DNA of 64,000 nt, from IMG/VR virus record IMGVR_UViG_2693429668_000006; one strand, 5' to 3'. The stretch is from a virus (Duplodnaviria > Heunggongvirae > Uroviricota > Caudoviricetes). Under the pieces are notes generated by a model that made no database searches, was not told the origin of the DNA, and saw nothing but the letters and a program-made list of their open reading frames with translations. The position numbers were made by a program, and so were the translations under genes. Positions 27,165 to 36,017 of this stretch are shown in pieces; the stretch's first letter is position 1, and every line of letters begins with the position of its first letter.

Positions 27165-30100
27165 TCAGTTACTTGTTGCCCCAACAGTACCTGCAAATTT
27201 CAGCCATTGACCTGACGGACTTCTATTACTACGGTAGTGATAAACGAGGATTGCGTTTGTAATCCCACCATAGTCAGCTTTGTGTGACGTCGTTAAACGA
27301 ATTGTATAATCACCGTTAGGTAGATTAAAAACTTCGATTATAGATTCTGCTAATTCTACAGCACCAAATCCCGTTATATTGTTGATACTGCCAGCATTGA
27401 ATCCCATAGCATCGCCAAAGCCAATCCAATAACTTTTGCTAAACGCCCCATTTGATTTTAGGTGGCTAATGAATGCGGACAAGCTCATGCCCATATCCCC
27501 ACCTGAAACAGAGGAAGTTCGCACAGTCATACTTGGAAGAGCACTGCTCTTCACATAGGAACTTAGAAGGTTTGTTACCTCTGTTTTCGTGTAAGCATTA
27601 AGGTTAGCCGCAGTCAAAGTTATATCGGCAGAGCCATCAAACGCCACACCAGCAATTTTCCTTGCTGTCTGCAATTTTGTGGCGGTTGCGGCATTACCAG
27701 TAGTGTTCTGGTTCCCATCTGCATTCACACCTGGAATGCTGTCTTTTTTAGTATATATCTGAGTCCAGTCCTCTTCGAACCCATAGCCATCACGTGATGA
27801 ACGGTAATACAATCCACCATTTTTATAATGCGCTCGGATTTGGAGAGTCCGACAACTACCTACGCCTATATAAAAATTTGCAACGATATAAGAATCCCCG
27901 GAGCGTGTAACATTATACGCACCTGATTCGGCATTCCACGGGACCGCACCACTAGCATCGGCATAAGTTCCAGTAGCGCGTCGAGCAAAAGCAGATACAT
28001 TTGCAGCTGTTAGTGTTATATCAGCAGAACCATCAAAAGACACGCCGCTTATTTTTCTAGCAGTTTGCAACTTCGTAGCTGTTGAAGCATTACCGTTCAA
28101 ACTACCATTTACGCCACCAGTAACATTTAGTCCATTACCAATGGACACAGCACCGCTGGTATTATTAATTGTAATAGGTCGCAAACCGTTCCATGAACCT
28201 AATGTGTCTCCTGATGCTGTTAGCATGAAATATGTGTTCGATCCATCATTACGGATAAAGAACCCAAAGCTACCGTAAGCAATGCGGAAACCATTTGCAT
28301 ATTTTGAAACGATCTCACCAGAAGACGTTAATCCGCCAGTTAACGCTCCTCCAGATAGTGGTAAAGCTCCGACATCAGCCGCAGTAGGCTTGTTTTTAGT
28401 GTTATACGCTCTGCGCCATCCTGGTGAATAGCTCGTCCCGTTAAATACATAGATAAACTCCGCATTAGTGAGAGCACCAGAGACACTCGCCGTTGTGGCC
28501 GTTGTTATACGGATCGTATAATTGTTTGAGCTACTACCGTTATTAAATACCTCTATAACAGCTCCTGCTAATGGAATAACGCCACAACCAGTTTCACTAT
28601 TTGGTATGGTTGCACTATTGGCATAGGCCCACGCACATCGAGCAATCCATGACTTTGTGTTAAATGCTCCATTATTTTGCAATAACGTCACTAACTGTGC
28701 TGTTGTTATTGCTCCGCCATTACTTCCTGTAGTTAACCAACCAGTAGGAGATGCCGGGCAACCTATATTTGCTGGCGACAAGGAAATATTTGCCGAGCCG
28801 TCAAACGACACCCCATTGATAGTACGCGCAGTCTGCAACTTCGTAGCAGTAGCCGCGTTGCCCGTTGTATTCTGATTACCAGTCGTATTAACACCTGGCA
28901 AATTAATATTCGCAGTACCATCAAAGCTCACGCCGCCGATAGTTCTTGCCGTCTGAAGTTTTGTAGCAGTTGCAGCATTACCAGTGGTGTTCTGATTACC
29001 CGTAGTGTTTACACCTGGAAGGTTAATATTTGCAGAACCGTCGAAAACAACTCCACCGATAGATCTTGCCGTCTGCAATTTCGTGGCTGTACTTGCATTA
29101 CCATTCAATGAACCAGTTAATCCACCTGTAACAGACAACGGACCTGAAACTGTTCCTCCGGTTGTTGGCAGTGCTCCAATATCTGATGGTGTAGGTTTCT
29201 GATGTGAGCTATACATCGTATAAACAACACCATCGGTAACGCTGGAAGGCTTACTCGCTGAATATGTTGGCGAGGTATAAATAGAAACTGTCGCATTTGC
29301 AGTACAATCCCAATGGATATTTACACGAGTCGCATAATTGCCAATCTCAACGTAAATATCATATGTATCGCCGGATGTGTTGATCCAGGCGAAATTCGTT
29401 AATCCGACAGCTGTACGCTTCCACAAAGCACCTGTAATCCCTTTGGGGTTTCCATTGCCTGCTCGTAGAACCAGTTCTGAAATGCCTGCCTGATGTGGGG
29501 AGCCGACGTTGTAACCAGCGCCACCAATCAATGCGATGTAAACGATGGAACTCGCTTGTGGCATGGTAACCGTAGCCAGTTTGAACCACCCTGCCCCGCC
29601 AGAGAAAGACATCGTTACTGAATTTAAAGTACCAATATCTTTCGGCGTTAATGTGATATCCGCAGTCAGTGCTTTACCGTTAACTTTTCGGTTAGATGGC
29701 ACCCTGCTATTCGCATTGTCATTGGCTGCTTTAACTGCTTTTGGCGTTGCGGCCAGCGATTCACTGGTGCTGTCGACAGCACTGCTAAGTTTCACAACAC
29801 CTTTAGTTGTAAGGCTTGCGTCTTCCATCGCAACTGCACCGGCAATCTCTTCAGCACGATCAGCAGCAGCTTCCGCACGGGTCGCAGCGGATTCAGCAGC
29901 AGTTTTGCTCTGAGATGCTGCCGTCGCACTGCCTGCCGCCTCTGTTGCTTTCGTGGATGCCGTCGTGGCACTGCCCTTCGCTGCTGACGCCTGTCTGGTC
30001 GCCTCATCTTTTGAAGCAGACGCAGATGATGCCGATGACGCCGCCGAACTGGCGGACGATGCGGCAGCCGTTTTTGAGGATTCTGCGCTGGTTTCCGACG

Positions 30101-31190
30101 CTTTCGCGTTCGTTTCGGATGTCTTCGCTGCGGAAGCAGACCTCGCTGCTGCGCTAGCCTGTTCAGTGGCTTCGCCAGCCTTCGTTGTGGCTGTTGAAGC
30201 AGACGATGCGGCACTTTCTGCCGATTTTCCGGCGGCGGTGGCACTGGCTGAGGCCTGCCCGGCACTTGTTGACGCGGCACTGGCAGACGACGCAGCCGCT
30301 GTTTTTGAGCCTGCCGCAGCTGAGGCACTCTGTGCTGCTGCCGTCTCAGAAGACTTAGCGTTCGTCTCGGACGTTTTTGCCGCCTTCGCGGAATTGCCTG
30401 CCGCTGTTGCCGAGGAGGCTGCACTACTGGCGCTCAAGGATGCGTTCGTTTCTGATGATTTCGCTGCCTCTTTTGAGGCCGCCGCATCCCGGGCTGAGGT
30501 GGCAGCTTCTGACGCTTTCGTGGTCGCGGTGGATGCAGAAGTGGCTGCTGATTGTTGTGACGCTGCGGCATTCGTTTCAGATTTTTTCGCAGCAGTTGCA
30601 CTCGCACTTGCGGCACTTTGTGAGGATGCCGCAGCGGATGCACTTTGAGACGCTTGAGAGGCTTTTTCTCCAGCGGTATTGGCGCTTTCTGCTGCTGCGG
30701 CAGCACTGGCCGCTGCCTCACGAGCTTTGTCGCCAGCAGCATCAATCGCGTCAGTGTTATTTTTATACCACTCAACGTTTTCGTTGTGCTCGTTGACGAT
30801 CTGCATTAGCGGCTTAACGGTTACTTCTGTACCGTCTTCACGCTCGATTGTCACCTCATCCAGAGCAGTCAACCAACTGCGCATAGACTTGGAATCAGCC
30901 GACATACGCGACATTAGTGCTGTAAAGCGCGCGCTAAACTGTGTTAAGTCGCCTTCATAGGTCGTAATGATTCGGCACGGAACCTCAGACTGAGTTTCGC
31001 CGGTATAAGGTTCTGAGAGAACAATATTCGTATCGCTTATTACGCGCTTGATCTCATACAGCTTATTGTCGGGGCCAATGACGATCATCCCCGGCAACAC
31101 ACCATTAGCTGTTACGTTCCAGGCTGTCCCTGCCCCAACCAGAGTATTGCTACCCTGTGTAAATGTGATAGTACCTTCCCTGTACCACAT
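27165..31190 (-). CDS. side tail fiber protein with Ala/Ser-rich rod and multiple phage tail-fibre repeats
   Basis: 1341 aa; about 300-aa A/S/T-rich low-complexity segment; at least 6 copies of GN(A/S)(A/S)TATKLQTAR(x)I(G/S)GV(x)FDG(S/T)A(N/D)I as in lambda Stf-type fibres. Confidence 0.85.
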   Translation of the reverse strand: MWYREGTITFTQGSNTLVGAGTAWNVTANGVLPGMIVIGPDNKLYEIKRVISDTNIVLSEPYTGETQSEVPCRIITTYEGDLTQFSARFTALMSRMSADSKSMRSWLTALDEVTIEREDGTEVTVKPLMQIVNEHNENVEWYKNNTDAIDAAGDKAREAAASAAAAAESANTAGEKASQASQSASAAASSQSAASASATAAKKSETNAAASQQSAATSASTATTKASEAATSARDAAASKEAAKSSETNASLSASSAASSATAAGNSAKAAKTSETNAKSSETAAAQSASAAAGSKTAAASSASAASTSAGQASASATAAGKSAESAASSASTATTKAGEATEQASAAARSASAAKTSETNAKASETSAESSKTAAASSASSAASSASSASASKDEATRQASAAKGSATTASTKATEAAGSATAASQSKTAAESAATRAEAAADRAEEIAGAVAMEDASLTTKGVVKLSSAVDSTSESLAATPKAVKAANDNANSRVPSNRKVNGKALTADITLTPKDIGTLNSVTMSFSGGAGWFKLATVTMPQASSIVYIALIGGAGYNVGSPHQAGISELVLRAGNGNPKGITGALWKRTAVGLTNFAWINTSGDTYDIYVEIGNYATRVNIHWDCTANATVSIYTSPTYSASKPSSVTDGVVYTMYSSHQKPTPSDIGALPTTGGTVSGPLSVTGGLTGSLNGNASTATKLQTARSIGGVVFDGSANINLPGVNTTGNQNTTGNAATATKLQTARTIGGVSFDGTANINLPGVNTTGNQNTTGNAATATKLQTARTINGVSFDGSANISLSPANIGCPASPTGWLTTGSNGGAITTAQLVTLLQNNGAFNTKSWIARCAWAYANSATIPNSETGCGVIPLAGAVIEVFNNGSSSNNYTIRITTATTASVSGALTNAEFIYVFNGTSYSPGWRRAYNTKNKPTAADVGALPLSGGALTGGLTSSGEIVSKYANGFRIAYGSFGFFIRNDGSNTYFMLTASGDTLGSWNGLRPITINNTSGAVSIGNGLNVTGGVNGSLNGNASTATKLQTARKISGVSFDGSADITLTAANVSAFARRATGTYADASGAVPWNAESGAYNVTRSGDSYIVANFYIGVGSCRTLQIRAHYKNGGLYYRSSRDGYGFEEDWTQIYTKKDSIPGVNADGNQNTTGNAATATKLQTARKIAGVAFDGSADITLTAANLNAYTKTEVTNLLSSYVKSSALPSMTVRTSSVSGGDMGMSLSAFISHLKSNGAFSKSYWIGFGDAMGFNAGSINNITGFGAVELAESIIEVFNLPNGDYTIRLTTSHKADYGGITNAILVYHYRSNRSPSGQWLKFAGTVGATSN
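28780..29140. repeat. three tandem ~120-bp imperfect repeats inside the tail fiber gene
   Basis: Units beginning at roughly 28784, 28904 and 29024 (ATATTTGCCGAGCCGTCAAACGACACC... / ATTCGCAGTACCATCAAAGCTCACGCC... / ATTTGCAGAACCGTCGAAAACAACTCC...); dispersed related copies near 27600 and 27990. Confidence 0.8.
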
Positions 31191-31283: not shown

Positions 31284-34200
31284 TCACAGACGGCCAATTC
31301 TTACTCGTAGGACGTTGTTATCGTCATAAACGTCAATCCGCTGACCATTTATAACCAATCTCCCATTGCCGCCGCTATTACCGTTGATCTCAAGCGTTCC
31401 ATTTTTGCCGAACCGCCATCCAGATCTACCGCTAACAAAATTGGTAGATTGCAGATCGCCTACTTTTGCATTGGTGATTGTGCCATCCTTGATATACGCT
31501 CCATTCATATAGGCGATACTGTTTTCGATAACAAATGGCGTTGTGATCTTCCCGTTAACAGAGTTGACCAAACCAAACCTGTCCGCCTGAACCAAAAACT
31601 GAGATAGCCCAGTGGTGTCAATACCAAGCGCAATACCGGCAACATACTTCTGCCCTCCGCTCGTTGAAGTCTCCATTTTCAACGTCCACGCGGTTGATAC
31701 TTTTTTGTTGGTATCAGCAATAGCTGTTGCCTGCTGTTGAATTGTCGCGGTATTTCCATCCACCTCTGCTTTCAGAGTATCGATTCGCCCACTCAGAGCA
31801 TTATCTGCCTGCGTTCTCGCTGTCGTTTCAGTTGTGACCGCCGCAGAAATGTTGGCTGCTGTTTGAGACTCTAAGTTTGTGATTTGAGTCGCCAATGCAG
31901 CATCTTGCTCTGTACGCGTTTTCGTTTCGGTTGCTACAGCCGCTTTAATATCCTCTTTGTATTGAGAGGTCAGCTTGGTGATCTGAGACGACAACGCCGA
32001 GTCAGCATCAGTTCGAGCCTGCGTTTCAACTGCAACGGCCGCACTAATATCTTTCGCTGTCTGTGCTTTTAAACTTGAAACCTCTTTTGTTAAAGCGGTA
32101 TCACCATCTGCACGAGCCGTTGTTTCTCTGGCAAGAGACGCCTCGAGATCATTAGCTTTTGCTGTAAGAGACGTAATCTGGGTAGACAATGCACTATCGG
32201 CATCAGTCCTTGCTTTTGTCTCTACAGCAACCGCTGCGGCAATATCAGTTCCGGTTTGTGCTCGCAGGCTGTTAATTTCTCGTGAGAGCGCCTGGTCAGC
32301 ACTTGCTCTGGCCTCCTGCTCCTGAGTGATGGCCGCGGATATATCACCGTCAACCTTTGACTGAAGCTGGTTTATTTGTTTGGCTAACGCAGAGTCCCCG
32401 CTTGCTCGGGCCTCCTGCTCACTACGTATTGCAGCAGAAATATCATCATCAACCTTTGCCTGAAGTTGGGTGATCTGGCTTGCCAGAGCCGAATCTTCCG
32501 TTGCTCGGGCTTCTTGCTCTTCCTTAATGGCTGCGACGATATCGTTGCTTACTTTCGACTCAAGCTGAGTGATCTGTGTCGTCAGAGCTTCATCGGCAGA
32601 TGTACGAGCCTCCTGCTCTGTACTAATCGCCGCGCTGATATCTCCTTCAAACTTAGATTGCAGCTGAGTGACACGCTTTGCCAACGCTTCATCGCCATCG
32701 GCACGAGCGGTGGACTCTTCCAGAATACTGGCCTTAATGTCTTCGCCAATTTCTACGCGAATTTCCTCAACCTTCGTGGCCATTGCAGACATATCATCAG
32801 CAAAGGTTTTCTGTGTTGTTGCGATCTTCGCGTTATTGACCATCTGCTTGTGCTGGTCTTCATCTTGACGAAGAGCCAGGTCAATATTTGTTTTGGCTAA
32901 CGCCTCAATGTTCGTAGTCAGTTCTGCACTGGCACGATCGACCTCTGCAACCGTCTTTTTCATTTCTTCAACGGCAGCGGAGCTTTCCTCTACCGTTGAC
33001 TGCAACACTTCCAGTTGTTTAGCGTTTGCAGCATCGCCTTCAACACGAGCCTCGCTTTCCTTAGCAATAAGAGCCGCCGCTTCATCTCTTGCAGCCTTTA
33101 TTGCCTCGACTGTATTAGCGAGAGCTTTATCGTGTTCAGATACGGTGTTTTCGATTTCAACAATTGCAGCATCAGTAGCATCAATTTTTTCAAACGCTTC
33201 ATTGACCTTGTCGATCGTTGCCGAAACCTCACCTTTAAGCTCGGTTTGTGCGTTCTCCAAAGCATCGCTACGCTCGTTGAATTTTATTTCAAAATCCGCG
33301 AGGTTATCGCTGAACTGCTTATCTAATTCAGCTATATCTTCCTTAACGTCGTTTACCGCCCCCTCCAAAGATTCGACGCTCTGGTTGATATGCTCATTTA
33401 ACTCGTCAACTGCTTCTTGAGAGGCTTTGCTGTTGATGTCCTCAAGCAGAGCCTGACCAAGCTCGGAAGATGTAATTTTGCCAGTCAGGAACGACAGTAC
33501 ATCGCGAGTTGTCGCCTCTGTACCCAAGTTTGAGTTCGGAGGACTTAACATACCTCGCTTGTTCGATGCTCGAACCCAGTAATACCACGTTTCGCTATCC
33601 CCAAGACCAGCATGTGTAAAGGTGGTGCTTGCAGACTCTGCGATCAGTTTCGCCGTATCCAGATTGTTGGTCTGGGATGCGTAAACATTAATGTGATCAA
33701 GGTCTACCGAATCTGGATTAACCCAATTCAGTATCACATTACGATAGTCTCCAACGGCCGTTAATGACGTTGGGGCATCCGGCGGTGTCATTGTGCCCAA
33801 CACCTGATAAACGGTACTGATAATCTCTGTTTTTTTACCGTTGAATGAAACCGCATACAGCTGGAAGTCGTAGCGTCCATTCTCCGCGACATTAACGATT
33901 TCGTATTGCTCTTCGGTTACACGCGCCGATTGCCAGTTCGATACATTGTTTTCATCAGAACGTCGCCAACTGATCCAATACTCTGGAGATTTCCCTTCCC
34001 ATGTTGCAGTCAGTTTTACTGACAGGTTGCCCGGGCTTGAGAGATAAGTCCCTTCAGTGATTTGCAGATTAGATGGCTTGGAGTAAGTTGGGTCCAATAC
34101 CGTCGTATTCTGCGGGATCAGCGTTGCACCATTGTCGATTGCCTCATATTTAGACGGATTGTTCTCAACAGCGGTGATGTCAAAGCTACCCGGCGTTTCC

Positions 34201-36017
34201 CCCTGCGCGATGTTAACGATGCGAACGCGCATAGGTTCGAGGTCTGGTTCTGTAATAGTCCAGACGCCGTTCAAAACAGGCGTTTCAGCCGAAGACAGGG
34301 CTTTTGAAAACGTAACTTTTGTTATATTTTCGCCAGTTTCAAGAACATCGCGTTCAACGATTTTGCCTTCCTGATTCAGTATTCGAATAAAGCAGCCGCC
34401 TTTGGCTAACGACACAGGCGCATCGAGTGTGACGCTGTTTTTGGTAAACGCCACAATTCGACCTGAGTTACGTTTGCCTGCGCGATATTTGTTCTGAATC
34501 AGAACGGTTTCACCAGGCATCAGAAATGACGCGTCTAAGCCGGCAGTAAATGTAATTACATCCGACTCCATTCTGGCGGTATATAAAAGCCACAAACCAA
34601 CTCGGTGAGCCTGCCCTCGGCTTGTACAGCCAAATGCTACGACTTCTGTTTTACGCTCACCATAACGGCGCATTGCGTCCTGATCTTCGACGTACTCGAT
34701 GTTTTGCTTATAACCGTCCTCCTTGTTGTTGTAGGTTACGAGCGCAACGGATGGGCGATCTTTACGCGCAGAACCTTTATAGGTAAACAATCCATCTTTG
34801 ACGTTAGAGTTGGTAAACATCATTACCGGATCTGATGGGCTATCCTGCATGATGTTAACCATCCCACCAGCCCAAAACACCATGCCGCGGAATGCTCCGG
34901 CAATATCCTGAATTAGCCGGTATGCGTCCTGTCGACTGGTGATCTGCGTATTGATTGCAAAGCGTTTCTCTTTGCCACCAAAGCCATCATCGACCTCTTC
35001 GTCACAATATCGACCAATCTGGTACAACTGGCCAAGGTCAATCATAGATTCCGACACATACTGACCAAGGCCATATCGAGCATTGGTCAGCAAATCAAAG
35101 AGAATCCACGCGGGGTTCGAAGAAGACAACAGCTTAAAAGTGCCATCCCATACCCCAGCGTAAGTGTTACTGGACTCGTTATAGTTTGAAGGTACTCGAA
35201 TTTTTAGGCCACGCACCAGATAAGAGCGAGATGGCATGGTGCTGCCGAATTGCTCAGAGTTTACCTTCAATCCAACCAAAACAGAGTTTGGATAGTTCAT
35301 CGGTGTATCGACAATTTCCCCGATTGAATCCACCCATGTATCGTTATAGAGATACTGGCTACTGTTATCATCGGTAATACGGACCACACGAACCTTGTAT
35401 GCTCGTCCAGGCTTAGGCAGCTTCAGCTCATAGCTACGGTAATAAACGCCGGTCTTCTTTGCTGTTAGCTTAATGCCAACGCTTTTTTCACCTTCAGCGA
35501 CCACATCTACAAATGTTGAGTCGCCATTTGCTATCTGGAACTTGTACTCAACAGTCGTACCGTTCGTGTCACCAGTTTTTTTATCTATGCTTCGCAAAGA
35601 AGGAAACTTCATGATGACACGAACCCGATCAGCTTCATCGTTATCGATTGAAACCGTTACATAATGTGTTTTTTTTAACTGGATATTGACGGATTTAGGC
35701 GTTTCAACGAAATCAAAGCCAGACATTGGAGTCTGGTCTTGTGAACCGTCGCGAAAATCCCATGTGATTCCGCTGAAGTTGGAGGAACCGTCTTCATTTA
35801 CAATCGGCAGATCGTCGATAAAAATAGATCTTGCGCCATTTACTAAGCCGCCAATTACCCCTTCCCCAAGAAGATCGAGGATAGCGGCCATTGCACGAGA
35901 ATTTACGGTATCGTCGGCTTCAACCGGTGTACGGCTGGAGCTTTTGCTGCTTTTTTTACCACCCGCACCGGCAATAAACAGCGGTAGCTTTTTCTTCTTG
36001 AACTGTTCCATGTTCAA
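31284..36017 (-). CDS. host specificity / tail tip protein (lambda gpJ-like) with long C-terminal coiled-coil repeat region
   Basis: 1577 aa; N-terminal two-thirds resembles gpJ-type tip attachment proteins; position after I-K-L-M as in lambda; C-terminal about ten 33-aa tandem repeats. Confidence 0.8.
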   Translation of the reverse strand: MNMEQFKKKKLPLFIAGAGGKKSSKSSSRTPVEADDTVNSRAMAAILDLLGEGVIGGLVNGARSIFIDDLPIVNEDGSSNFSGITWDFRDGSQDQTPMSGFDFVETPKSVNIQLKKTHYVTVSIDNDEADRVRVIMKFPSLRSIDKKTGDTNGTTVEYKFQIANGDSTFVDVVAEGEKSVGIKLTAKKTGVYYRSYELKLPKPGRAYKVRVVRITDDNSSQYLYNDTWVDSIGEIVDTPMNYPNSVLVGLKVNSEQFGSTMPSRSYLVRGLKIRVPSNYNESSNTYAGVWDGTFKLLSSSNPAWILFDLLTNARYGLGQYVSESMIDLGQLYQIGRYCDEEVDDGFGGKEKRFAINTQITSRQDAYRLIQDIAGAFRGMVFWAGGMVNIMQDSPSDPVMMFTNSNVKDGLFTYKGSARKDRPSVALVTYNNKEDGYKQNIEYVEDQDAMRRYGERKTEVVAFGCTSRGQAHRVGLWLLYTARMESDVITFTAGLDASFLMPGETVLIQNKYRAGKRNSGRIVAFTKNSVTLDAPVSLAKGGCFIRILNQEGKIVERDVLETGENITKVTFSKALSSAETPVLNGVWTITEPDLEPMRVRIVNIAQGETPGSFDITAVENNPSKYEAIDNGATLIPQNTTVLDPTYSKPSNLQITEGTYLSSPGNLSVKLTATWEGKSPEYWISWRRSDENNVSNWQSARVTEEQYEIVNVAENGRYDFQLYAVSFNGKKTEIISTVYQVLGTMTPPDAPTSLTAVGDYRNVILNWVNPDSVDLDHINVYASQTNNLDTAKLIAESASTTFTHAGLGDSETWYYWVRASNKRGMLSPPNSNLGTEATTRDVLSFLTGKITSSELGQALLEDINSKASQEAVDELNEHINQSVESLEGAVNDVKEDIAELDKQFSDNLADFEIKFNERSDALENAQTELKGEVSATIDKVNEAFEKIDATDAAIVEIENTVSEHDKALANTVEAIKAARDEAAALIAKESEARVEGDAANAKQLEVLQSTVEESSAAVEEMKKTVAEVDRASAELTTNIEALAKTNIDLALRQDEDQHKQMVNNAKIATTQKTFADDMSAMATKVEEIRVEIGEDIKASILEESTARADGDEALAKRVTQLQSKFEGDISAAISTEQEARTSADEALTTQITQLESKVSNDIVAAIKEEQEARATEDSALASQITQLQAKVDDDISAAIRSEQEARASGDSALAKQINQLQSKVDGDISAAITQEQEARASADQALSREINSLRAQTGTDIAAAVAVETKARTDADSALSTQITSLTAKANDLEASLARETTARADGDTALTKEVSSLKAQTAKDISAAVAVETQARTDADSALSSQITKLTSQYKEDIKAAVATETKTRTEQDAALATQITNLESQTAANISAAVTTETTARTQADNALSGRIDTLKAEVDGNTATIQQQATAIADTNKKVSTAWTLKMETSTSGGQKYVAGIALGIDTTGLSQFLVQADRFGLVNSVNGKITTPFVIENSIAYMNGAYIKDGTITNAKVGDLQSTNFVSGRSGWRFGKNGTLEINGNSGGNGRLVINGQRIDVYDDNNVLRVRIGRL
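31730..32720. repeat. about ten tandem 99-bp (33-aa) coiled-coil repeats within the gpJ-like gene
   Basis: Protein repeats ALxxQITQLxSKVxxDISAAIxxEQEARxxxDx; DNA periodicity visible across this interval. Confidence 0.75.

What the first reader, a model, noticed from the sequence alone, without database searches (positions are those of the whole stretch)
31730..32720. About ten tandem 33-residue coiled-coil repeats in the C-terminal part of the gpJ-like tip protein
The translation shows a regular 33-aa unit (ALxxQITQLxSKVxxDISAAIxxEQEARxxxDx) repeated about ten times, with related degenerate helical repeats further upstream. This predicts a long extended coiled-coil fibre appended to a lambda-J-like tip protein. 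The repeat number could tune fibre length.
Basis: seen in the sequence. Interest (0 to 1): 0.4.

Follow-up and report, generated by a model that had tools for sequence, protein, structure and literature searches.

The report
Repeat-built coiled-coil shaft of phage tail fibre
The tail-tip protein of this E. coli phage-plasmid carries about ten tandem 33-residue helical repeats that build a long three-stranded shaft, a longer version of a shaft known in phage T1 and in F-type pyocins, where it acts as a spring that refolds on host contact.

Summary
On the minus strand, the J/TipJ gene (31284..36011) encodes nine strong 33-residue units (31806..32693; one is 32 residues) flanked by two degenerate units. 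Lag-33 identity is 0.47, against at most 0.18 in shuffles.

The hydrophobic period is 3.66, so each unit is three hendecads, not heptads. The 593 residues from aa 845 to 1437 contain no proline. AlphaFold2 models aa 1177-1408 as one confident helix.

The array lies between the FNIII domains and the terminal beta-prism (Pfam Phage_Tail_Tip). It is therefore the alpha-helical shaft of a lambda-J-type central fibre, here about 590 residues against about 50 in lambda.

It is homologous to the shafts of T1 gp33, DEV gp56 and the F2-pyocin central fibre. Every unit carries the published coiled-coil-to-beta-prism switch motif in both orientations, plus the Glu-Arg (i, i+4) pair. The downstream side fibre has the F-pyocin-type shaft-docking anchor.

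Copy number varies: 8, 9 or 10 units in near-identical E. coli alleles, 3-9 across SSU5-group elements, and up to 21 elsewhere.

The array is a new, long member of a recently described module. Whether it switches fold is untested.

The parts
31284..36011 (-). J/TipJ-type central tail fibre (tip attachment) gene, 1575 aa from the ATG. The ORF listing gives a TTG at 36017; residue numbers in this report count from that TTG.
   Evidence: 99.2% nucleotide identity to 'tail host specificity protein J' of Escherichia phage Cyrano. phmmer matches lambda J, T1 gp33 and the F2-pyocin fibre.
33540..35708 (-). Hub and FNIII part of J: FNIII-A_GpJ (aa 104-238), Phage-tail_3 (aa 360-523), fn3 (aa 747-826).
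   Evidence: Pfam. About 90% conserved across SSU5-group homologues.
32793..33485 (-). Proximal, irregular part of the helical shaft (aa 845-1075). Proline-free, hydrophobic period 3.56. Variable among homologues, with indels of 7, 18, 25 and 29 aa.
32760..32897 (-). Conserved acidic island in the shaft (aa 1041-1086, KTNIDLALRQDEDQHKQMVNNAKIATTQKTFADDMSAMATKVEEIR). Candidate docking site for the side fibres; this is an inference.
   Evidence: aa 1023-1082 is 87-90% conserved while the flanking shaft is variable. By analogy with the acidic kink of the F-pyocin shaft.
32694..32792 (-). Degenerate unit 0 (aa 1076-1108).
   Evidence: Unit HMM score 13; 27-39% identity to the other units.
31806..32693 (-). 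Nine strong tandem units (aa 1109-1404), eight of 33 aa and one of 32 aa. Units 1-4 are the EQEAR subtype; units 5-9 are the ETxAR subtype.
   Evidence: AlphaFold2 gives a continuous helix for aa 1177-1408.
32103..32198 (-). The single 32-residue unit (aa 1274-1305, ends ARADG). It shifts the repeat register by one residue.
   Evidence: The single-sequence AlphaFold2 model breaks the helix at aa ~1302-1305. phmmer places the F2-pyocin kink insertion next to this unit.
31707..31805 (-). Degenerate unit 10 (aa 1405-1437), at the junction with the beta-prism.
   Evidence: Modelled as strands (aa 1414-1434) with the alignment but as helix without it.
31341..31745 (-). Terminal beta-prism, the central straight fibre domain (Pfam Phage_Tail_Tip, formerly DUF1983; aa 1425-1559). 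The protein ends 18 aa later, with no lambda-type receptor-binding domain.
   Evidence: Foldseek matches lambda gpJ 8xcj/8xci and phage SU10 7z4b. phmmer.
27165..31190 (-). Side tail fibre gene (1341 aa), immediately downstream of J.
30837..31190 (-). N-terminal anchor of the side fibre (aa 1-118), homologous to the shaft-docking N-terminus of the F2-pyocin side fibre.
   Evidence: phmmer E = 0.004. Profile E = 9.2e-6 against 25ve_A residues 2-115. 79-89% conserved in the eight fibres that share this anchor type, while the distal parts of those fibres differ.

Best explanation
The repeats are the greatly expanded alpha-helical shaft of a lambda-J/TipJ-type central tail fibre in an SSU5-group phage-plasmid.

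Structure. Three J chains are expected to form a parallel three-stranded coiled coil. Each 33-residue unit is three hendecads. Two have a hydrophobic core (L4, I8, L11, V15, I19, A22/I23). The third has a polar core built from the invariant Glu26-Arg30 (i, i+4) pair. Together with about 230 less regular helical residues upstream, the shaft is about 590 residues long. Fully extended that would be roughly 85-90 nm, or about 4.9 nm per unit. It links the FNIII domains that close the tail tip to a terminal beta-prism.

Copy number. Unit number sets shaft length. It changes in-frame by unequal recombination between neighbouring units.

Function, by homology with the F-type pyocin shaft, has two further likely parts:
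(a) The shaft is the docking platform for the side fibres encoded downstream.
(b) It is a metastable spring. On receptor engagement it would refold, nucleated from the distal prism, into a beta-prism. That would shorten the fibre and open the tail tip.

Shown here: the repeat, its period, helix prediction, position in J, homology, and copy-number polymorphism.
Inferred: trimer, extended geometry, docking site, fold switch. The confidence given (0.75) is for the shaft identity and length-setting role. I put side-fibre docking at about 0.5 and the fold switch at about 0.45.
For: Repeat and period:
- Lag-33 identity is 0.47 against at most 0.18 in shuffles.
- The hydrophobic period is 3.66 in the repeats, with no power at 3.5.
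- There is no proline in aa 845-1437.

Helix: AlphaFold2 with a 60-sequence alignment gives one helix for aa 1177-1408, pLDDT 83-90.

Position: the array lies between fn3 and Phage_Tail_Tip. Lambda J aligns only to the hub and to aa 1421-1549. Lambda's own domain order is FNIII, alpha-helical shaft, beta-prism, receptor-binding domain.

Homology:
- The repeat-only query hits only phage central fibres in the PDB: T1 gp33 at 1.3e-10 and DEV gp56 at 8e-9. No generic coiled coils appear.
- The family profile aligns F2-pyocin residues 908-1199 at E = 5.7e-62, with high posterior probabilities through the shaft.

Published behaviour of the F-pyocin shaft: it is a trimeric coiled coil, it carries the side fibres, and it switches to a beta-prism.

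Switch motif:
- SxSxxMxxLxS occurs once forward and once reversed in every unit: 27 hits against 5.3 +/- 2.2 in shuffles.
- All S, L and M positions comply in the eight canonical units.
- E26/R30 aligns with F2 E1039/R1043. These are the residue numbers of the salt bridge that He et al. describe as buried in the F7 coiled coil.

Side fibre: its anchor is homologous to the F2 side fibre N-terminus.

Copy number:
- 10, 9 and 8 units occur in near-identical E. coli alleles. The 10-unit allele is an exact duplication of unit 4. The 8-unit allele is a fusion of units 3 and 4.
- 3 to 9 units occur across the SSU5 group.
- Up to 21 contiguous units occur in a 2138-aa protein with the same architecture.
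Against: - No multimer prediction or experiment was possible. Trimer state and extended geometry rest on homologues.
- The single-sequence AlphaFold2 model folds the helix back on itself at aa ~1302. A hairpin is therefore not excluded.
- The unit-only profile and the repeat-only query do not reach the F2-pyocin shaft on their own. That link needs the family profile, and part of its score comes from the adjoining beta-prism domain.
- The switch motif was derived from this same family, so matching it shows homology, not switching.
- He et al. note that lambda and T5 do not show the extensive switch. A shaft 3.6 times longer than F7's may behave differently.
- No PyoF11/PyoF12-like adhesin genes follow J here.
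Confidence: 0.75

Rival explanations
1. Static spacer only. The repeats form a stable coiled-coil rod that just holds the terminal domain, and perhaps the side fibres, at a set distance from the tail tip. Copy number tunes reach and there is no fold switch. This rivals only the spring sub-claim of the best explanation, not the shaft identity.
For: Helix prediction is confident and continuous. Copy number varies in whole units. No beta alternative appeared for the strong units in either AlphaFold2 run. He et al. state that lambda and T5 lack an extensive switch.
Against: One hendecad in three has a polar Glu/Arg core. Every unit keeps small residues at all six published 'S' positions, a pattern not needed for a plain rod. 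The homologous F7 shaft does switch. In lambda, the distal 21 residues of the shaft convert to strands.
Confidence: 0.4
2. The helices fold back on themselves into antiparallel bundles, for example at the 32-residue unit. The result would be a shorter, thicker stalk rather than one long parallel coiled coil.
For: The single-sequence AlphaFold2 model places a turn at aa ~1302-1305 and pairs the two halves. Gly occurs at three unit junctions: aa 1108, 1207 and 1305.
Against: The alignment-based model keeps one straight helix. Monomer models of long amphipathic helices commonly fold back as an artefact. The solved F-pyocin shafts are parallel trimers. SSU5-group relatives with 3-5 units have no 32-residue unit.
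Confidence: 0.1
3. A single alpha-helix or a flexible, disordered linker rather than a coiled coil.
For: 24-33% charged residues, depending on the part of the shaft. The C-terminal part of T1 gp33 was too flexible to resolve.
Against: There is a clear hydrophobic seam with period 3.66 and invariant L4, L11 and I19. pLDDT is high. Homologues are resolved as three-helix bundles.
Confidence: 0.03
4. Chance or low-complexity artefact, or a repeat that is not translated.
For: None found.
Against: The ORF is intact and 99% identical to the annotated J of an isolated phage. The repeat statistics are far above shuffles. Indels among alleles are always in-frame whole units.
Confidence: 0.01

Closest known systems
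Central fibre protein of F-type pyocins (P. aeruginosa F2/F7, PA0641): alpha-helical shaft and fold-switching coiled coil (He et al. 2026, PMC12874032; Gu et al. 2026, PMC13455828; bioRxiv 10.64898/2026.02.24.707460)
   Same: Same order: hub, FNIII, helical shaft, beta-prism. Profile homology runs through shaft and prism (E = 5.7e-62). Same SxSxxMxxLxS motif in alternating orientation. Same Glu-Arg i+4 pair (F2 E1039/R1043 aligns with E26/R30). The side fibre has a homologous N-terminal anchor.
   Different: The pyocin shaft is about 163-178 residues, roughly 3.6 recognisable units distal to a Gly/Asp kink plus about one unit proximal to it. Here the shaft is about 590 residues with 9-11 crisp units. 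No RDDADDGNG-type kink insertion is present. No PyoF11/F12-like adhesin genes lie downstream. One pyocin paper describes the register as mainly heptad, whereas the period here is hendecad (3.66). This is a phage-plasmid virion, not a tailocin.
Phage T1 central fibre protein gp33 (PDB 9L9P; PMC11945409) and other Drexlerviridae J-like proteins
   Same: Closest solved-protein match for the repeats alone (E = 1.3e-10). T1 has the same kind of 33-residue unit (ALSREIDQLKAQIGDDIQASLTDIREVIATETE) directly before the same terminal domain.
   Different: T1 has about 3 units. Its C-terminal residues 821-1172 were not resolved and are only modelled by AlphaFold3 at about 37 nm. Most of the 1715 phage records with this module align only to about the last 290 residues of the query.
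Bacteriophage lambda gpJ: alpha-helical shaft, central straight fibre and receptor-binding domain (PDB 8IYK, 8XCJ, 8XCK; PMC11101478)
   Same: Homologous hub and beta-prism. Same gene order M-L-K-I-J. The shaft sits below FNIII-2, and in lambda its distal 21 residues convert helix to strand on LamB binding while the fibre shortens from 29.7 to 13.2 nm.
   Different: Lambda's shaft is about 50 residues (809-861) with no tandem units. Lambda has a C-terminal Ig-like receptor-binding domain of about 160 residues that is absent here. Ur-lambda side fibres ring the distal tail protein, not the shaft.
Receptor-binding fibre gp56 of Pseudomonas phage DEV (N4-like podovirus; PDB 9ZE4; PMC12892993)
   Same: Coiled coil plus the same terminal domain. 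Profile E = 3e-74. The repeats alone match at E = 8e-9.
   Different: A 429-residue stand-alone fibre on a podovirus, with no J hub and a short coiled coil.

Membership tests
Lambda J / TipJ central tail fibre (tip attachment) proteins | N-terminal hub domains homologous to gpJ | tested here: met
   Pfam FNIII-A_GpJ 1.5e-29 and Phage-tail_3 7e-34. phmmer to 8iyk_J 2.3e-124 over aa 21-863.
Lambda J / TipJ central tail fibre (tip attachment) proteins | Gene placed after tape measure, M, L, K and I homologues in a siphovirus tail module | tested here: met
   Annotation of the 99%-identical phage Cyrano region: TMP, M, L, K, I, J, tail fibre.
Lambda J / TipJ central tail fibre (tip attachment) proteins | Beta-prism central straight fibre domain (Pfam Phage_Tail_Tip) | tested here: met
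   PF09327 1.4e-41 at aa 1425-1559. Foldseek to 8xcj_F with probability 1.00.
Lambda J / TipJ central tail fibre (tip attachment) proteins | Lambda-type C-terminal Ig-like receptor-binding domain. This is specific to lambda and not required for the wider family. | tested here: not met
   The protein ends 18 aa after the prism domain. The lambda alignment stops at J residue 971.
F-pyocin-type fold-switching central-fibre shaft | Long helical segment between FNIII and the distal beta-prism, homologous to the pyocin shaft | tested here: met
   AlphaFold2 helix. The family profile aligns F2 908-1199 at E = 5.7e-62. Caveat: the repeat-only query and the unit-only profile do not reach F2.
F-pyocin-type fold-switching central-fibre shaft | SxSxxMxxLxS motif in alternating orientation, with Glu at an M position paired to Arg at i+4 | tested here: met
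   One forward and one reversed motif per unit: 27 hits against 5.3 +/- 2.2 in shuffles. E26 and R30 are invariant and align to F2 E1039/R1043.
F-pyocin-type fold-switching central-fibre shaft | Parallel trimeric coiled coil in the pre-ejection state | not testable with these tools
   Only monomer AlphaFold2 was available. The trimer is inferred from the solved homologues.
F-pyocin-type fold-switching central-fibre shaft | Conversion of the coiled coil to a beta-prism on receptor binding | not testable with these tools
   One hint only: the repeat-related unit 10 (aa 1414-1434) is modelled as strands with the alignment and as helix without it.
F-pyocin-type fold-switching central-fibre shaft | Side fibres with an OB-domain anchor that dock on an acidic kink of the shaft | tested here: inconclusive
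   Anchor homology is met (profile E = 9.2e-6 to 25ve_A residues 2-115). The docking site is not identified. The candidate is the conserved acidic island at aa 1041-1086. No RDDADDGNG-like insertion is present.
F-pyocin-type fold-switching central-fibre shaft | Small adhesin genes (PyoF11/PyoF12-like) immediately downstream of the central fibre gene | tested here: not met
   J is followed after 93 nt by the 1341-aa side fibre gene, then by holin and endolysin.

The most novel reading that the evidence does not exclude
The 33-residue unit is the modular unit of a coiled-coil-to-beta-prism spring. Each unit would be about 4.9 nm of helix that collapses into one beta-hairpin, adding about 1 nm to the prism. 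Unit number (3 to 21 in nature; 8, 9 or 10 within one E. coli lineage) would then set the stroke by which the tail tip is pulled to the outer membrane. Unequal recombination would let phage-plasmids retune that stroke to the thickness of the host's surface layers.
Probability: 0.25. Interest if true: 0.65.

Novelty: new member of a known kind. Interest (0 to 1): 0.4.

Why it matters
How non-contractile tails obtain the energy to open and reach the membrane is only now being answered. The leading case is the F-pyocin coiled-coil-to-beta-prism switch, reported in 2026.

SSU5-group phage-plasmids carry the same module as a clean tandem array. Natural alleles differ by exactly one unit (8, 9 or 10), and relatives span 3 to 21 units. 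Several of them are propagatable phages of laboratory hosts (PhiR41_1 on MG1655, SSU5 on Salmonella LT2). This gives a ready-made length series for testing two things: whether shaft length and stroke matter for adsorption, host range or ejection, and whether the switch occurs in a real phage rather than a tailocin.

The elements are also relevant in practice. In the complete E. coli genomes searched here, this allele is found only on plasmids, in 172 of 5426 genomes. Elements of this group are reported to carry antibiotic resistance genes.

If the shaft turns out to be only a rigid spacer, the finding is an ordinary structural repeat.

Tried and rejected
1. Unit-only profile (33 positions) against the PDB. 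It hit only T1 gp33 (6.8e-8). F2-pyocin was not reached, so the pyocin link rests on the broader family profile.

2. AlphaFold2 with a deep alignment versus a single sequence, to provoke the alternative beta state as He et al. did with trimers. Both runs gave helix for the strong units; only unit 10 differed.

3. Foldseek of the model against the PDB. It matched only the terminal beta domain (SU10, lambda) and says nothing about the helix.

4. Supplementary tables of He et al., to see whether SSU5-type phages were among their 24 central fibre proteins. The tables are not held.

5. Literature search for EM or functional data on the SSU5 or Cyrano central fibre. Nothing was found.

6. The search for homologous proteins for the side-fibre anchor. 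It returned only close relatives, so I built the profile from loci instead. One chimeric sequence (P0087) produced a spurious hit to the F2 central fibre hub, which I ignored.

7. Whether the giant J-like proteins of related plasmids (3662 and 2476 aa) are simply longer arrays. They are not: they are mosaics with inserted globular domains.

8. A gradient of beta-propensity toward the prism. It is weak: Thr/Val/Ile fraction 0.19 in units 1-4 against 0.26 in units 5-9. I do not rely on it.

9. Correlation between unit number and side-fibre length. None was obvious from nine elements, and I did not pursue it.
Full report
OBSERVATION

The finding lies on the minus strand, in an ORF spanning 31284..36017 (1577 codons from the listed TTG). 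The 99.2%-identical 'tail host specificity protein J' of Escherichia phage Cyrano starts at the ATG two codons later, which is window 36011. I number residues from the TTG, so 31730-32720 corresponds to aa 1100-1430.

Autocorrelation peaks at lags 33, 66 and 99. Within aa 1100-1430 the lag-33 identity is 0.47. In 2000 shuffles, the best lag of any averaged 0.15 and never exceeded 0.18.

D-x-A-L anchors are spaced 33,33,33,33,33,32,33,33,33. This gives nine strong units at aa 1109-1404 (31806..32693), one of them 32 residues long (aa 1274-1305). A degenerate unit lies on each side (32694..32792 and 31707..31805). Nine of the 33 positions are invariant in the eight canonical units.

The units fall into two subtypes, 1-4 and 5-9. 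They are old at the DNA level, with 45-70% nucleotide identity. This is why Tandem Repeats Finder reports only 2.2 copies of a 99-nt period.

WHAT KIND OF HELIX

- The hydrophobicity spectrum of the repeats peaks at 3.66 residues (11/3), with no power at 3.5. The less regular region upstream, aa 845-1108, peaks at 3.56.
- The predicted core positions are 4, 8, 11, 15, 19, 22/23, 26, 30 and 33: nine per unit, or three hendecads.
- Two hendecads are hydrophobic. The third places the invariant Glu26 and Arg30 (i, i+4) at core positions.
- aa 845-1437 (593 residues) contains no proline.
- AlphaFold2 on aa 1175-1577 with a 60-sequence alignment gives one continuous helix for aa 1177-1408 (pLDDT 83-90), followed by a beta domain.
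- Without an alignment, the helix breaks once, at aa ~1302-1305, which is the end of the 32-residue unit.

WHERE IT SITS

Pfam finds FNIII-A_GpJ (aa 104-238), Phage-tail_3 (360-523), fn3 (747-826) and Phage_Tail_Tip (1425-1559). Nothing is found in aa 840-1425.

Lambda J aligns to the hub (aa 21-863) and then only to aa 1421-1549. The lambda literature gives the domain order as hub domains, FNIII-1, FNIII-2, alpha-helical shaft (residues 809-861), beta-sheet prism (central straight fibre), receptor-binding domain.

The repeats therefore occupy the position of lambda's roughly 50-residue shaft, expanded to about 590 residues. They are not an appendage on the end of J. The protein stops 18 residues after the prism domain, so it has no lambda-type receptor-binding domain.

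HOMOLOGUES WITH KNOWN BEHAVIOUR

- The repeats alone hit only phage central fibres in the PDB: T1 gp33 (9L9P, 1.3e-10) and phage DEV gp56 (9ZE4, 8e-9). No generic coiled-coil proteins appear. T1 has the same kind of 33-residue unit.
- A profile built from 60 diverse homologues aligns F2-pyocin central fibre residues 908-1199 at E = 5.7e-62, with high posterior probabilities through the shaft. The pyocin's RDDADDGNG kink appears as an insertion between units.
- The unit-only profile and the repeat-only query do not reach the pyocin. The link is therefore at family level and is partly carried by the adjoining prism domain.

Three 2026 papers on F-type pyocins show the following:
- The shaft is a three-stranded coiled coil.
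- Three side-fibre trimers dock on an acidic, Gly-kinked stretch of it through an N-terminal OB domain and stem.
- In F7, the whole 163-residue coiled coil refolds into a triangular beta-prism on cell contact. This opens the tip and releases the tape measure protein.
- The sequence signature is SxSxxMxxLxS in alternating orientation, with Glu at an M position salt-bridged to Arg at i+4. The example given is E1039-R1043.

In lambda, the distal 21 residues of the shaft also convert to strands, and the fibre shortens from 29.7 to 13.2 nm.

THE SIGNATURE IN THIS WINDOW

- Every unit carries one forward motif (A-L-x-x-x-[IV]-x-x-L-x-[SA], positions 3-13) and one reversed motif (A-A-[IV]-x-x-E-x-x-A-R-[TA], positions 21-31).
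- There are 27 hits in aa 1077-1437, against 5.3 +/- 2.2 (maximum 13) in shuffles.
- All six S positions, both L positions and both M positions comply in all eight canonical units.
- The reversed motif aligns with F2 'ASLQSEQTARA', in which E and R are residues 1039 and 1043.
- Caveat: the motif was derived from this same family. The match therefore demonstrates homology and conservation of the pattern, not switching.
- One small hint: unit 10 (aa 1405-1437) is clearly repeat-related. It is modelled as strands (aa 1414-1434) with the alignment and as helix without it. This fits the 'seed' strands described by He et al..

SIDE FIBRE

The next gene (27165..31190, 1341 aa) is a side tail fibre.

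- Its first ~118 residues match the N-terminus of the F2-pyocin side fibre, residues 2-115. The single-sequence E-value is 0.004 and the profile E-value is 9.2e-6.
- This anchor is 79-89% identical in the eight fibres that share this anchor type: seven SSU5-group elements and the window. Their distal parts differ.

Within J, conservation across ten SSU5-group homologues runs as follows:
- the hub is about 90% conserved;
- aa 873-1020 is variable;
- aa 1023-1082 is again 87-90% conserved, and the alignment shows the acidic stretch ...LRQDEDQHKQ...FADDMSAMA... within a conserved island at aa 1041-1086;
- the repeats are variable and full of indels;
- the prism is conserved.

I infer that the conserved island is the docking site. 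This is not shown.

COPY NUMBER

Counting units that score above 25 bits with a unit HMM:

| Element | Strong units |
|---|---|
| Window / Cyrano | 9 |
| E. coli CP081792 | 8 |
| CMS-2020a CP054387 | 8 |
| PhiR41_1 | 7 |
| E. hormaechei, Y. pestis pMT1 | 5 |
| SSU5, E. marmotae, E. coli CP046008 | 4 |
| S. Typhi pHCM2 | 3 |

- Among complete E. coli genomes, 172 of 5426 carry this allele, always on plasmids.
- Among alleles 97-99% identical, one has 10 units through an exact duplication of unit 4. Others have 8 units through a fusion of units 3 and 4. Units 3 and 4 are the most similar adjacent pair (70% nucleotide identity), so this is what unequal recombination would produce.
- In a library of 1.84 billion representative proteins, 197 clusters match the unit at E <= 0.001.
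- Among the 143 best clusters examined, spacings between successive units are 32 (most common), 33, 36 and 39 residues. Copy numbers reach 21 contiguous units in a 2138-aa protein with the same Pfam architecture.
- Most of the 1715 phage records with this module align only to about the last 290 residues of the query. This window is therefore at the long end of the range, but it is not the extreme.

MECHANISM

Most likely (about 0.75): a parallel trimeric, hendecad-type coiled-coil shaft whose length is set by unit number, at about 4.9 nm per unit and about 85-90 nm in total if fully extended.

Likely but unproven:
- It carries the side fibres (about 0.5).
- It is a metastable spring of the F-pyocin type (about 0.45). 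One polar core hendecad per unit would supply periodic destabilisation. If each unit becomes one hairpin of a prism, the fibre would shorten by roughly 4 nm per unit. That geometry is my inference from the published description, not a measurement.

Rivals:
- A purely static spacer (0.4). This competes only with the spring sub-claim.
- Fold-back antiparallel bundles (0.1).
- A single alpha-helix or disordered linker (0.03).
- An artefact (0.01).

COMPARISON AND NOVELTY

The protein is a member of the J/TipJ family. The hub, gene order and prism features are met; the lambda-specific receptor-binding domain is absent.

It shares the sequence-level hallmarks of the F-pyocin-type shaft. The defining behaviours, trimer state and fold switch, could not be tested. 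One accessory feature, the downstream adhesin genes, is absent.

I file it as a new, unusually long and regular member of a known, recently described kind. What adds value beyond the published work:
- the 33-residue (3 x 11) unit structure;
- the finding that each unit carries both motif orientations and the Glu-Arg pair;
- the natural one-unit allelic series.

Interest is moderate, at 0.4.

Noticed in passing
window 27165..31190 (-): The side fibre protein has an Ala/Ser-rich low-complexity stretch of about 300 aa (aa ~150-450). It also has five copies of a GNA[AS]TATKLQTAR motif and a Gp34_trimer domain at aa 901-1008.
   Followed up: partly
L014 481-11469 (-) (E. coli NZ_CP062852); L015 549-7979 (-) (K. 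pneumoniae NZ_CP027801): Related phage-plasmids encode giant J-like proteins of 3662 and 2476 aa. They are mosaics with inserted domains (ILEI-like and SlyX-like Pfam hits), not longer 33-residue arrays. They keep a short coil before the same terminal domain.
   Followed up: partly
window 33300..33400 (-), aa ~873-905 of J: Among SSU5-group homologues, the proximal shaft differs by indels of 7, 18, 25 and 29 residues. All are sums of 7 and 11, as expected if coiled-coil register must be preserved.
   Followed up: partly
proteins P0089-P0231 (representative library hits): In the wider family the related unit recurs with periods of 32 (commonest), 33, 36 and 39 residues. P0089 (2138 aa) has 21 contiguous units in the same J architecture.
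   Followed up: partly
L016 (NZ_CP182176), L017 (NZ_CP027358), L002 (NZ_CP081792): Near-identical E. coli plasmid alleles have 10 units (exact duplication of unit 4) or 8 units (fusion of units 3 and 4). This points to recent unequal recombination.
   Followed up: yes
window 31284..31340 (-); L004, L005, L006: The window's J ends 18 aa after the prism domain. The J proteins of E. hormaechei, S. Typhi pHCM2 and Y. pestis pMT1 carry extra C-terminal extensions of roughly 120-170 aa, and pMT1 has an added DUF4376 gene before the fibre gene. The distal receptor-binding arrangement therefore differs within the group.
   Followed up: no
L006 990-5621 (Y. pestis pMT1): The Yersinia pestis plasmid pMT1 keeps an intact 1543-aa J ORF with 5 repeat units and a conserved side-fibre anchor.
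   Followed up: no
window 36011..36017 (-): The mechanical ORF start is a TTG at 36017. The Cyrano annotation, and the other annotated SSU5-group J genes examined, start at the ATG (MEQF...) at 36011.
   Followed up: yes
window, whole; E. coli genome search: This J allele occurs in 172 of 5426 complete E. coli genomes, always on plasmids of about 95-120 kb and never on chromosomes. This fits an SSU5-type phage-plasmid. The Cyrano annotation of the neighbouring region lists KacT-type and RelE/ParE-type toxin genes and a ParA partition gene.
   Followed up: partly
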